Assembly: GCA_034521815.1 (NCBI GenBank)
Contig: JAXHLW010000013.1
Coordinates: 544,001-608,000 of the forward strand
DNA length: 64,000 nucleotides
DNA from: Trueperaceae bacterium
GTDB lineage: Bacteria; Deinococcota; Deinococci; Deinococcales; Trueperaceae
Direction of reading: 5' to 3'
Position numbers: made by a program. This document shows, piece after piece, positions 21,401 through 24,400 of the stretch. How positions within the stretch are numbered: the stretch's first letter is position 1; each line of letters begins with the position of its first letter.

Positions 21401-24400
21401 GCGGCGCGAGAACCTCGCGAGCGGCCTGCGCCAGATCCATGCTACCTCCTAAGGTCCGCGCCGCCCCGCGGCCTGCGTTCGGCGATGCGTGCGGCGATGC
21501 GTGCCAGGCAACGAAAAAGGCGGGCTCTGGAACACCCACCCGTCACGGCAGCCGGACCGTCGTCCGTTCACCATCCTAGCGCTTCGCGGCCGCCAGGTAC
21601 AAGGCCGGTCGCGACGGCGCCGCAGCGCGAGGCGTCGCGACCGGCGTGCACCGCCTACGTGCACCGCGTTCGCTTTACAGCCTGCACGCGCGCAGGTAGC
21701 ATGCGGCCCATGTCGGTTTCGGTCCGAGCTACCTGCTAGCGACGCGCCCCTCAGCGCGTCGCCCGACGGATGACCCTCATCGCAGGGTCGTCCTTTTTGT
21801 TGGTCGCGACGCCAGATCGCGACCGCTCGGGCTCTCCGCTTCCGACCGTCTGGAGGATCATCATGCGACCGACCGGCGAGGTCCTGCTGCTCACCCCGGG
21901 TCCGACCCCCATCCATCCGCGAGCCCTCGCCGCCATGCAGTGGCCGATGCGGGGCCACATGGATCCCGAGGTGTTCGCCTACAACGACCAGGTCGTGGCG
22001 GACCTGACCGAGCTGTACGGCGCGCCCGAGGGCGCGTTCGCGAGCCTCCTGTCGGGCACCGGGTCGCTGGGGATGGAGGCCGGGCTGGCCAACCTGCTCG
22101 AACACGGCGACCGGCTGCTGGTCGCGTCCAACGGCGTGTTCGGCGAGCGGATGATCGAGATGGGCCGGCGGCTGGGCGCCGAGGTGAGCGTGGTGCGCGC
22201 CGAGCCGGGCGCCGCGATCGATCCGGCCGTCGTGGGCGAGGCGGCGCGGCGGCTCGAGCCGAAGGTCGTCGCGGTGGTGCACGGCGAAACCAGCACCGGG
22301 GTGCTGAACCCGCTGGCCGAGATCGCGGCCGCGGTCCGCGGCAGCGGAGCGCTGCTCTCGGTCGACGCGGTCACCACCGTCGGCATGATGCCGTTCGACA
22401 TGGCGGCGCTCGGGGTGGACTACGCCTACACCGGCTCGCAGAAGTGCCTGTCCGCGCCCCCCGGGCTGGCGCCCGTCGTGTACGGACCGGCCGCGATGGA
22501 CGCGGTCGTCGCGCGGCGCACGCCCGTCACGAGCTGGTACGCCGACGCGACGGGGATGCAAGCGTACTGGCAGCCGGGCGGCGCCCGCGCCTACCATCAC
22601 ACCGTGCCGGTGCAGCTTCATTGGGCCACCGGCGAGGCGATCCGAGCGGCGCTCGAGGAAGGCCTCGTCGCCAGGGAGGCGCGTGTCCGCTGGCTGGGAC
22701 GCGCGATCCTGGACGCCCTCGCCCCCGAGGGGTTCGCTCCGTTCGTGCCCGAGCCGCACCGGCTCCCGACCGTGCTGGCCCTGCGCCTGCCCGTCGGGCT
22801 CGACGACGCGGCGGTGCGCGGGGCGCTGCGCGGCCGGTACGCGATCAGCGTGACCGGCGGCCTCGGTCCGACGGCGGGGCGGATCTGGCGGCTGGGCCTG
22901 ATGGGCGAGAACGCGCGCTACCAGCATTACCTGCGCCTGATGGAGGCGCTGGCCGAGCTGCTGCCCGCACCGGAGCTGCCCGCCCGGTTCGAGCGCGCCG
23001 CCGCCCCGGTGGCCGCGTGACCGACGACGACGACGCCCGCAACGACGCCCGCAACGCCGAGCGAGACGACGTTCGCGAGCACCAGGCCAGCGAGCTGGCC
23101 CGGCGGCGCGCCGCGCGGGCCGGCCTGGATCTCGACACGCTCAGGCGCGACGCGCCGGACCAGTACCGGATGCTGAACGCCGAGGAGATCGTCCGGGTCT
23201 CGCCCGAGCTGGCCGAGGTCGCGGCCGAGCTGGTGTGGGAGATGTTCGAGGAGCGGCGCATCTACCGCGTGCCCGGCGAGGGCGTGGAGCGGCTGCTGGC
23301 CTTTCCGCCGCTCTCCGAGCAGGAGCTCGAGCGCTTCGACGACGCGGCGGCGGATCTGGTCGCCCGGCCGGCGTACGAGACCGAGCTGGCGTTCTTTCGC
23401 ACCGTGCGGGATCTGCGCGGCACGCGGCGCGAGCTGATGCTGCCCACCCCGCCCGAGGCGTGGCGTGGCGAGGCCGTCCTGGTCGGCCCGTTCCGCGACC
23501 GGGAGGAGGCGGAGGGCTGGCCCGCCGGACGGCTTCCGCCCGAGCTGGTGGCCGATCCGTTGCCGTACCGGGGCCGCTGGTTCTGCGACGTGTTCCGCGG
23601 TGACGAAGACCTGCTCTTTCCAGGGGACGGCTCCGCGTCGTGAGCCCAGGCGCCGACGAGCCGCGCGCTTGACGCTCGTCCGGGCCGGGGCTACAGTCTG
23701 TCGATGACGCGATTCGCTCGGACTGAAGCGTTCGTTGACTGAGCGGCGCGGGCCCACCGCGTCGCAGCGCCGCCGTTCCCGCTAGGGGACGCGGCTTTTT
23801 TGTGGTCGCGGAGCGGCCGCCGGCCCGCCGGGTTCCGCGCCCGACCGTCCCCGAGGAGGAACGATGCACGACGAAGCCCGCGCCGAGATCGAAGCCGCGA
23901 CCGACCTGCGCGACCTGCAGCAGGTCCGGGTCCGCTGGCTGGGCAAGAAGGGGCGCATCACCGCCGAGCTCAAGGGCCTCGGCCAGCTCCCGCCGGAGCA
24001 GCGTCGCGAGGCCGGGCAGCGGATCAACGTCGTGAAGCAGGAGATCCAGCAGGCGATCGAGGACCGCAAGGACCAGCTCGAGCGGGCCGAGCTGGCCCGC
24101 CGACTCGCGGCCGAGCGGGTGGACGTCACCCTGCCCGGGACCCGCGGTCCGGGCGGCGGCCTCCACCTCCTCACCAAGGTCACCAACAGGCTTCTGGACG
24201 TGTTCAGCGGCCTGGGGTACGAGGTCGTCACCGGTCCCGAGCTCGAAAGCGACCACTACAACTTCGGGGCGCTCAACTTCCCGCCCGAGCACCCCGCACG
24301 CGACGAGCAGGACACCTTCTGGGCGGAGGACGGCCGGCTGCTGCGGACGCACACGAGCCCGATGCAGGTGCGCTACATGGAGACGCACGCCCCGCCGTTC

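What a model noticed while it worked through the whole genome (the two positions that open the first line are those of the whole stretch)
21690..21862. Alanine-sensing leader-peptide attenuator (invariant CGA-GCT dicodon) before an alanine-glyoxylate aminotransferase
A leaderless 9-codon ORF (MSVSVRATC, C13:565710-565739) followed by an intrinsic terminator precedes the class V aminotransferase g01220 (AGT/PucG-like). The only conserved codons are Arg-Ala, CGA-GCN, mostly the rare GCT, just before the stop. It is a candidate alanine attenuator, a type I did not find described.
Evidence so far: 17 of 20 other Trueperaceae loci have a short ORF with CGA-GCN near its end (13 GCT; GCT is 4% of Ala codons here), followed by a hairpin with U-tract. 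Also in 3 of 4 genomes of other families (MRLLRAIR, MRFSARATL, MQRLTARA; calls 178,181,182). Not among the 14 D. deserti leaders; search 99 empty.
(Added by a program. Inside this text positions count along the whole contig: contig position 544,001 is position 1 of the stretch shown here. "Call 12" and the like, gene names such as g00115 and contig names such as C1 are that model's own, and its searches are not shown. The text may have been shortened before it was handed on; [...] marks where a part breaks off. The agent that wrote the report below was given it as the finding of a first reader that could run no searches.)

Follow-up and report, generated by a model that had tools for sequence, protein, structure and literature searches.

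The report
Single-codon alanine-sensing leader attenuator
A tiny reading frame ahead of an aminotransferase gene appears to let the ribosome sense alanine shortage at one alanine codon placed right after a slow arginine codon; the same switch recurs ahead of the alanine-tRNA ligase gene in related bacteria, making it an unusually minimal version of a known kind of amino-acid sensor.

Summary
A promoter-defined leaderless ORF with in-frame CGA-GCN precedes this class V aminotransferase in 70 of 79 family loci and 60 of 60 loci from three other families, but 0 of 18 in the Deinococcus-like family. CGA is invariant (130/130). A hairpin starts 12-13 nt after the Ala codon wherever the stop lies, as it does after the single Phe codon of the pheS leader 2 kb away. 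The strongest evidence: the same leader also heads alaS in 23 loci of three families. There the Ala codon is always kept, while CGA is replaced in 8, seven of which have tandem Ala codons. So alanine, not arginine, is most likely sensed, with starvation giving read-through. Open point: a hairpin/terminator switch folds in Thermus-like leaders (38/45), but none is found in the window's family. Alanine leaders are already in print (mycobacterial whiB7, tested; Streptomyces alaL, predicted), so this is a new variant. It is direct, single-codon and CGA-primed. No expression data support it.

The parts
21674..21702 (+). sigma70-type promoter (-35 TTTACA, -10 TAGCAT) placing the transcript start at or next to the leader AUG
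   Evidence: an equivalent promoter was scored upstream of all 79 family loci, 72 with a start codon 5-10 nt behind it; start site inferred, not measured
21710..21739 (+). leaderless leader ORF MSVSVRATC*
21725..21730 (+). CGA-GCT dicodon: Arg CGA (proposed P-site, wobble-read primer) then Ala GCT (proposed sensed A-site codon)
   Evidence: CGA in 130 of 130 aminotransferase leaders; Ala kept in 23 of 23 alaS leaders
21739..21762 (+). hairpin H1, starting 12 nt after the first base of the Ala codon; antiterminator in Thermus-like relatives, role open in this family
   Evidence: all 9 pairs show compensatory change; switch in family f5
21768..21801 (+). intrinsic terminator (GACC/GGTC core, U tract from 21794)
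   Evidence: core GACC in 64 and GGCC in 5 of 69; covariation
21852..21856 (+). Shine-Dalgarno GGAGG of the aminotransferase
   Evidence: sequence
21863..23020 (+). class V PLP aminotransferase, 385 aa; ortholog of PDB 2yri/2yrr (deposited as alanine-pyruvate aminotransferase); probable alanine-forming enzyme
   Evidence: E 3e-92; Z 50.3, rmsd 1.6, 352 aligned, 48% identity; substrate not tested
23704..23801 (+). pheS leader of the same build (MTRFARTEAFVD*, H1 23743-23765 starting 13 nt after the last Phe codon, terminator 23769-23801); used as geometry control, not part of the alanine switch

Best explanation
A leaderless, ribosome-read transcription attenuator that senses charged tRNA-Ala at essentially one codon. 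Transcription starts at the leader AUG (inferred). When Ala-tRNA is scarce, the ribosome waits with CGA in the P site and GCN in the empty A site, its leading edge just short of hairpin H1. RNA polymerase then reads through into the aminotransferase, which makes alanine from pyruvate (inferred). When Ala-tRNA is plentiful, the ribosome moves one to three codons on into the base of H1, and the terminator acts. CGA can only be read through an I:A wobble and is proposed to slow decoding of the next codon enough to make one codon of an abundant amino acid a usable sensor (inferred from yeast and Salmonella data). In Thermus-like relatives the base of H1 and the terminator compete for one strand (computed). 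In the window's family they do not, so read-through must come from a steric or kinetic effect of the stalled ribosome beside H1 (hypothesis only).
For: (1) Frame and spacing: 70 of 79 family loci, 53 of 53 f5, 6 of 6 f3 and 1 of 1 f4 loci carry CGA-GCN. H1 is tied to the dicodon, not to the stop. (2) A covariance model built only from 33 aminotransferase leaders found 73 places in 128 family genomes: 60 at the aminotransferase, 10 before alaS, 3 weak chance hits. Alanine leaders also precede alaS in 12 of 17 non-Thermus f5 loci and 1 of 2 f3 loci. (3) All 23 alaS leaders keep Ala in the slot. Eight lack CGA; seven of those have Ala-Ala and one Ala-Gln-Ala. H1 starts 12-14 nt after the Ala codon in 18 of 23. 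(4) pheS control: 24 of 28 leaders have a Phe codon 12-14 nt before H1, 18 of them TTT (TTT is 301 of 12,905 Phe codons here). (5) f5 switch: the basal strand of H1 changes partner when the ribosome shadow moves from +12 to +18 in 38 of 45 distinct leaders. (6) tRNA-Arg(ACG), tRNA-Arg(CCG), tRNA-Ala(GGC) and tRNA-Ala(CGC) were found in 5 of 5 near-complete genomes, and no Arg(UCG) among the 35 loci scanned; a tadA-like gene is in this genome. (7) PDB 2yri title. (8) CGA is read poorly in a Salmonella his-leader assay (PMC4046918, passages); CGA in the P site distorts the A-site codon in yeast (10.1101/755652, passages).
Against: No antiterminator in the window's family. The terminator core forms with P 0.97-0.99 under every ribosome shadow (n=69). 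The 3' arm of H1 pairs with the terminator no better than its shuffles (0.43 vs 0.48; real above control in 27 of 69). The H1 strand switches in only 2-4 of 69. In g55 leaders the alternative hairpin often ends 4-8 nt before the U tract, and a few (L105, L151, L152) fold a U-adjacent hairpin with H1 intact, which would invert the logic. The 12-13 nt slot is not universal: f3 leaders have H1 at +7/+8 and the metY hairpin starts 9-11 nt after the Met codon. An automated re-measure with a shorter shadow put H1 at +12 to +14 in only 51 of 70 family leaders. Nine family loci lack the motif: six lost the leader, L030 has TGA-ACT, L076 has CGA-GTT, and L071 differs. This genome's own alaS has no leader, and only 5 of 30 family alaS loci read had one. 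There is no transcript, ribosome or enzyme data.
Confidence: 0.78

Rival explanations
1. The sensed codon is Arg CGA (arginine limitation, or a general slow-decoding signal), with Ala only as context.
For: CGA is the only codon invariant at all three positions (130/130). Any stall upstream of H1 would leave H1 intact. CGA also recurs before the Met codon in 26 of 30 metY loci, where the hairpin starts about 13 nt after CGA.
Against: The only second target is alaS; no arginine gene was hit in 128 genomes. CGA is lost in 8 of 23 alaS leaders while Ala never is. By the pheS spacing the slot holds Ala, not Arg.
Confidence: 0.07
2. A nascent-peptide arrest motif (x-R-A-S/T, akin to RAPP/RAGP stallers) that senses a free metabolite at the peptidyl-transferase centre or at termination.
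For: Ala at -1 in 42 of 71 and Ser/Thr at +2 in 46 of 71 scored leaders, with varied codons. The S. lividans alaL peptide also contains A-R-A-T.
Against: Synonymous codons are not free (CGA 130/130). The stop floats from +10 to +31. Peptides are as short as 6 residues. There is no Pro at the RAPP position. QA-A, KA-A and PA-A variants replace RA before alaS.
Confidence: 0.06
3. Inverse logic: read-through needs the ribosome to melt H1, so the gene is on when alanine is plentiful (catabolic role).
For: In the window's family the terminator's 5' arm is paired more often when H1 is melted (mean 0.17 rising to about 0.45). A few g55 leaders fold a U-adjacent hairpin only with H1 intact.
Against: That rise is matched by shuffled controls. 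The same build heads alaS and pheS, which should rise on starvation. In g56/g57 leaders melting H1 creates the terminator. ald, the usual catabolic gene, shows no such leader in 5 of 5 genomes.
Confidence: 0.04
4. An RNA-only element (riboswitch or protein site) whose conserved CGAGC happens to be covered by a short ORF.
For: Without a ribosome the CGAGC region shows weak, mismatched pairing with the terminator's 5' arm in part of the leaders.
Against: No Rfam match (2 chance hits, E above 3). Frame 0 in 72 of 74 occurrences over 3-33 codons. The third base of the Ala codon varies.
Confidence: 0.03

Closest known systems
Leaderless leader-peptide attenuators predicted in Deinococcus deserti (PMC4007540; passages and supplementary table S9 seen)
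   Same: Same phylum; leaderless short ORF before aminoacyl-tRNA ligase or amino-acid synthesis genes; few control codons; includes a pheS leader.
   Different: None of the 14 is for alanine, alaS or an aminotransferase. The Deinococcus-like family lacks this leader (0 of 18 aminotransferase loci, 0 of 14 alaS loci). No fixed CGA or hairpin spacing is described in the passages seen.
Mycobacterial whiB7 uORF attenuator, 'Ala leader' (PMC10274678; abstract and passages seen)
   Same: Ribosome stalling in a uORF on alanine shortage gives antitermination and ends in more alanine aminotransferase (aspC). Experimentally tested.
   Different: Long, Ala-rich uORF that responds to many amino acids and to antibiotics; acts indirectly through a transcription factor; has an antiterminator. 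Here the control is direct and in cis on the enzyme and on alaS, with one or two Ala codons.
Streptomyces lividans alaL leader before alaS (PMC8079986; passages and three supplement rows seen)
   Same: Leaderless ORF before alanyl-tRNA synthetase, proposed alanine attenuator; its peptide contains Ala-Arg-Ala-Thr.
   Different: 22 residues with 6 Ala; predicted from RNA-seq only; no aminotransferase target. Its DNA could not be retrieved, so whether its Arg codon is CGA is untested and homology is not shown.
Classical enterobacterial attenuators trpL, hisL, pheM (recalled; trp logic also described in PMC4007540)
   Same: Leader ORF, control codon, hairpins, intrinsic terminator, read-through on starvation.
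   Different: They use runs of control codons inside segment 1 and a 2:3 antiterminator. Here one codon lies upstream of the first hairpin, and the window's family has no antiterminator.
Yeast inhibitory codon pairs CGA-CCG and CGA-CGA (10.1101/755652; passages seen)
   Same: CGA read by I:A wobble in the P site hinders decoding of the next codon.
   Different: Eukaryotic, constitutive stalls in coding regions. Use as a bacterial sensor component is my inference.
PDB 2yri/2yrr class V aminotransferase (organism T. thermophilus HB8 and locus TTHA0173 recalled)
   Same: 48% identity over 352 aligned residues. The ortholog in G308, whose N-terminus matches the chain as printed, carries the leader (MRPSRARR*).
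   Different: The name is a depositor's title; no paper found. Substrate not shown.

Membership tests
Classical leader-peptide transcription attenuator | Short ORF in the 5' leader under selection for translation | tested here: met
   Frame 0 in 72 of 74 motif occurrences, start 3-33 codons upstream, 70 of 79 loci. Translation itself not measured.
Classical leader-peptide transcription attenuator | Control codon(s) for the amino acid served by the downstream gene | tested here: met
   Ala codon in 130 aminotransferase and 23 alaS leaders; one or two codons, not a run.
Classical leader-peptide transcription attenuator | Intrinsic terminator between leader and gene | tested here: met
Classical leader-peptide transcription attenuator | Antiterminator mutually exclusive with the terminator (window's family) | tested here: not met
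   Terminator P 0.97-0.99 under all shadows; no excess over shuffles; switch in 2-4 of 69. The window's leader works like a classical attenuator but is not filed as one.
Classical leader-peptide transcription attenuator | Antiterminator mutually exclusive with the terminator (family f5 homologs) | tested here: met
   38 of 45 distinct leaders switch; the alternative hairpin is not always next to the U tract.
Classical leader-peptide transcription attenuator | Read-through rises on starvation for the control amino acid | not testable with these tools
   Only assembled contigs of RNA runs were on offer.
D. deserti-type leaderless leaders | Transcript starts at the leader's AUG/GUG | tested here: inconclusive
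   Start codon 5-10 nt after the -10 box in 72 of 79 loci; no start-site data.
T-box or metabolite riboswitch | Match to an Rfam model | tested here: not met
   2 hits, E 3.6 and 4.2, far below gathering scores.
RAPP/RAGP arrest peptides (motif recalled) | R-A-(P/G)-P with free synonymous codons | tested here: not met
   Residue after RA is S, T or F in 55 of 71; stop at the next place in 41; CGA fixed.
whiB7-type Ala leader | Long Ala-enriched uORF controlling a WhiB7 regulator | tested here: not met
   ORFs mostly 6-12 codons; targets are an aminotransferase and alaS.
NCBIfam equivalogs PhnW, BhcA, pyridoxamine-pyruvate transaminase | Score above the curated cut-off | tested here: not met
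   166, 158 and 148 bits against cut-offs 361, 650 and 600.
Alanine-forming aminotransferase | Measured pyruvate-to-alanine activity | not testable with these tools
   Only the PDB title and the shared leader with alaS point to it.

The most novel reading that the evidence does not exclude
Deinococcota use a reusable two-codon sensor, an I:A-wobble CGA in the P site followed by one control codon, to turn a single codon into a starvation sensor: CGA-GCN before the aminotransferase and alaS, CGA-ATG before metY (26 of 30 loci) and CGA-TGG before one trpS. In Trueperaceae the stalled ribosome also blocks a downstream intrinsic terminator without any antiterminator pairing, across a spacer hairpin.
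Probability: 0.35. Interest if true: 0.85.

Novelty: new variant of a known kind. Interest (0 to 1): 0.7.

Why it matters
It shows how small an amino-acid sensor can be: one control codon with a fixed upstream codon and a hairpin at a fixed distance, conserved across four families. It gives a natural, directly testable case of codon-pair (P-site wobble) effects being used for regulation in bacteria, in a group that includes a standard ribosome-structure organism. It points to the unstudied 2yri-type aminotransferase as a starvation-induced alanine source. The window's family poses a clear puzzle, because both this leader and the pheS leader have a terminator with no visible antiterminator.

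Tried and rejected
Rfam: nothing. Antiterminator pairing in the window's family: three folding tests, none above control. Stop codon as anchor (TnaC-like): rejected, the stop floats while H1 does not. L056 was dropped from all counts as a chance Arg-Ala (CGG-GCC in a long frame); L044 dropped out of the H1 geometry because its terminator core was mis-assigned, leaving 69; L156 and L168 were mis-picked by the pipeline and re-read by eye. The third hairpin 21803-21823 is not significant (z -0.32). ARAGORN's Arg(TCG) and Arg(GCG) calls in this genome are not tRNA-like. Two pattern scans for the Streptomyces alaL gene gave 2 and 3 matches; the three metagenome ones were read and are unrelated, the two genome ones are from non-Streptomyces records and were not read. 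RNA runs were contigs only; two of four stop 20 nt upstream of the leader AUG, in one study, which shows nothing. ald: no leader in 5 of 5 genomes. tyrS/trpS: no shared leader in 30 loci apart from one trpS. A consensus pause element at the terminator's G was present in only 27 of 69, so H1 as a pause hairpin is unsupported. Literature searches that found no description of this leader; two searches found the two prior alanine leaders. PMC4833913 (passages) has no mention of alanine, aminotransferase or alaS. PMC11857589: abstract only.
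Full report
OBSERVATION. The window holds, on the + strand, a sigma70-type promoter (21674-21702; 1 found, 0.0 expected), an ATG 7 nt after the -10 box, and the ORF MSVSVRATC* (21710-21739). A 9-bp hairpin H1 follows (21739-21762), then a 10-bp terminator with U tract (21768-21801), a GGAGG site and a 385-residue class V aminotransferase (21863-23020). Rfam has no match. The enzyme passes no NCBIfam equivalog cut-off. Its best sequence match among solved structures is 2yri/2yrr (E 3e-92). On the predicted model (pLDDT 94), 2yri aligns at Z 50.3, rmsd 1.6 over 352 residues, 48% identity, tied in Z with PucG and cyanobacterial AGT at 34-37%. Its title is 'alanine-pyruvate aminotransferase with 2-methylserine'. 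I found no paper on it.

CONSERVATION IN THE FAMILY. The gene is in 80 of 128 family genomes. I read 79 upstream regions; the 80th match begins at a contig edge. I first located the best promoter, then took the start codon 5-10 nt behind it, and corrected two starts by hand (L021, L051). Seventy of 79 loci, in 24 of 27 genera, have in-frame CGA-GCN: CGA in all 70, then GCT 53, GCG 12, GCA 4, GCC 1. The start lies 3 to 33 codons upstream, yet CGAGC is in frame 0 in 72 of 74 occurrences inside these ORFs. In this genome CGA is 7.5% of Arg codons, GCT 4.1% of Ala codons, and CGA-GCT 0.57% of Arg-Ala pairs (943 GC-rich long ORFs). Leaders are CGA-rich in general (31 of 75 other Arg codons), and relatives are not independent, so I give no P value. 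The nine exceptions are six loci with promoter but no leader (five in genus g18), L030 (TGA-ACT in place of CGA-GCT), L076 (CGA-GTT) and L071. One counted locus (L022) comes from unpublished genome G090; it is 1 of the 70 and 1 of the 33 in the alignment, and no claim depends on it.

ANATOMY. H1 varies from 17 to 70 nt, but its first pair lies 13-16 nt from the C of CGA in 69 of 69 scored leaders (57 at +15/+16). The stop lies at +10 to +31 and is often inside H1. The dicodon, not the stop, is therefore the anchor. In an alignment of 33 leaders both helices hold: 86% of cells pair, 15 of 19 pairs change on both sides, 0 of 500 shuffles reach this, and slid controls pair 29-48% (I drew the structure from these sequences).

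OTHER FAMILIES. Family names are my inference from handles: f5 Thermus/Meiothermus-like, f2 Deinococcus-like. The leader is present in 53 of 53 f5 loci read (of 64 genomes with the gene; two use an internal ATG after an insertion), 6 of 6 f3 and 1 of 1 f4, all with CGA. The total is 130 of 139. It is absent in 18 of 18 f2 loci read (of 97), where the gene is mostly leaderless itself (14 of 18).

WHICH AMINO ACID. Two independent controls point to alanine. First, the pheS leader at 23704 has the same build. Twenty-eight of 30 family pheS loci have such a leader, and 24 of the 28 place a Phe codon, mostly the rare TTT (18), 12-14 nt before H1. In the aminotransferase leader that slot holds the Ala codon. 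Second, a covariance model trained only on aminotransferase leaders gave 73 hits in 128 genomes: 60 at that gene, 10 directly before alaS in six genera (one in G009, which has no aminotransferase hit), and 3 weak chance hits. Only 35 candidates per genome were scored, so copies may be missed. Reading alaS upstream regions directly showed leaders in 5 of 30 family loci, 12 of 17 non-Thermus f5 loci, 1 of 2 f3 loci, and none in 12 g56/g57, 14 f2 or 1 f4 loci. All 23 keep Ala in the slot. Fifteen keep CGA; of the eight that do not, seven have two adjacent Ala codons. H1 starts 12-14 nt after the Ala codon in 18 of 23. A leader shared by a synthetase and a transaminase should turn on in shortage (inference from known attenuators), which also suggests the enzyme supplies alanine.

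ROLE OF CGA. Five near-complete genomes each have tRNA-Arg(ACG) and (CCG) and tRNA-Ala(GGC) and (CGC), with no Arg(UCG) among 35 loci scanned. This genome has a tadA-like gene; its Ala(GGC) gene is missing from an 83% complete assembly. CGA would thus be read by I:A wobble. In a Salmonella his-leader assay CGA is read more slowly than CGU/CGC (PMC4046918, passages). In yeast a P-site CGA misplaces the A-site codon (10.1101/755652, passages). I infer that CGA primes a single Ala codon and becomes dispensable when a second Ala codon is added. I did not verify the reading frame of each, and the hairpin there starts 9-11 nt after the Met codon, so the spacing rule does not carry over.

THE SWITCH. 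In f5, moving the ribosome shadow from +12 to +18 frees the basal strand of H1, which then pairs downstream in 38 of 45 distinct leaders. In g56/g57 this often forms the hairpin next to the U tract, so a ribosome stalled at Ala leaves H1 as antiterminator. In many g55 and some g56 leaders the new hairpin ends 4-8 nt early, and three g55 leaders look inverted. In the window's family no switch appears: the terminator forms with P 0.97-0.99 under every shadow, the H1 arm pairs with it no better than shuffles, and 2-4 of 69 switch. The pheS leaders look the same by eye. A steric or kinetic block by a ribosome parked against H1, a few bases from the terminator, is my working guess and has no support beyond the fixed spacings.

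PRIOR KNOWLEDGE. The 14 D. deserti leaders include none for alanine (table S9; supplement file 1 was not searchable). Alanine leaders are nevertheless in print: whiB7 in mycobacteria, tested and linked to the alanine aminotransferase aspC (PMC10274678, abstract and passages; supplements not seen), and alaL before alaS in S. lividans, predicted (PMC8079986, passages). Searches found no account of this leader, of a CGA-GCN sensor, or of an alanine leader in Deinococcota. The library lacks most subscription papers, including the older comparative surveys of attenuators that I recall, so a prior prediction cannot be excluded.

VERDICT. Real and strongly conserved; most likely (0.78) a single-codon alanine attenuator that controls an alanine-forming transaminase and, in several lineages, alaS. 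It works like a classical attenuator, but the window's copy fails the antiterminator test. It is a new variant of a known kind. Interest 0.7: the minimal design and the fixed CGA are surprising and cheap to test, while alanine sensing as such is not new and nothing here is measured.

Noticed in passing
window 23669-23801: Leaderless Phe leader before pheS with the same ORF-H1-terminator build, present in 28 of 30 family loci, mostly one TTT codon; no antiterminator visible by eye.
   Followed up: yes
L375:773-802 (G000:C13, about 611,270) and L376-L405: metY leader with CGA-ATG in 26 of 30 family loci and a hairpin 9-11 nt after the Met codon.
   Followed up: partly
L084-L103, L170 (family f2), upstream of the aminotransferase: No leader; instead one or two GCAA-N5-TTGC-like inverted repeats near the promoter in many loci, suggesting a transcription factor replaced the attenuator. 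Three g42 loci have a 4-codon ORF (MLLP*, MLSR*, MLSP*).
   Followed up: no
window 21518-21541, - strand: Terminator-like hairpin in the leader of the divergent rimP-nusA-infB operon, visible in many relatives; resembles a nusA autoregulatory attenuator (recalled).
   Followed up: no
window 24628-27309: pheT is split over two frames near 26,300-26,400: probably an assembly frameshift.
   Followed up: no
G000:C13:1398758: Leaderless ORF with an RDDN cluster and terminator before an AspRS-like gene.
   Followed up: no
L109, L156, L159, L276, L296, L300: A repeat-like insertion lengthens or breaks the f5 leader; CGA-GCT is kept in frame or rescued by an internal ATG (overlapping the upstream stop in L109).
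   Followed up: partly
L030 (G108) and L076 (G114): Natural variants: TGA-ACT and CGA-GTT at the dicodon with hairpin and terminator kept; useful as test alleles.
   Followed up: no
L435 (G106), about 390 nt upstream of the trpS domain match: Leaderless MQAQALLFQRWRR* with CGA-TGG and a hairpin at +11; single locus.
   Followed up: no
L077 (G056): The aminotransferase behind an intact leader appears interrupted by about 300 nt after residue 84.
   Followed up: no
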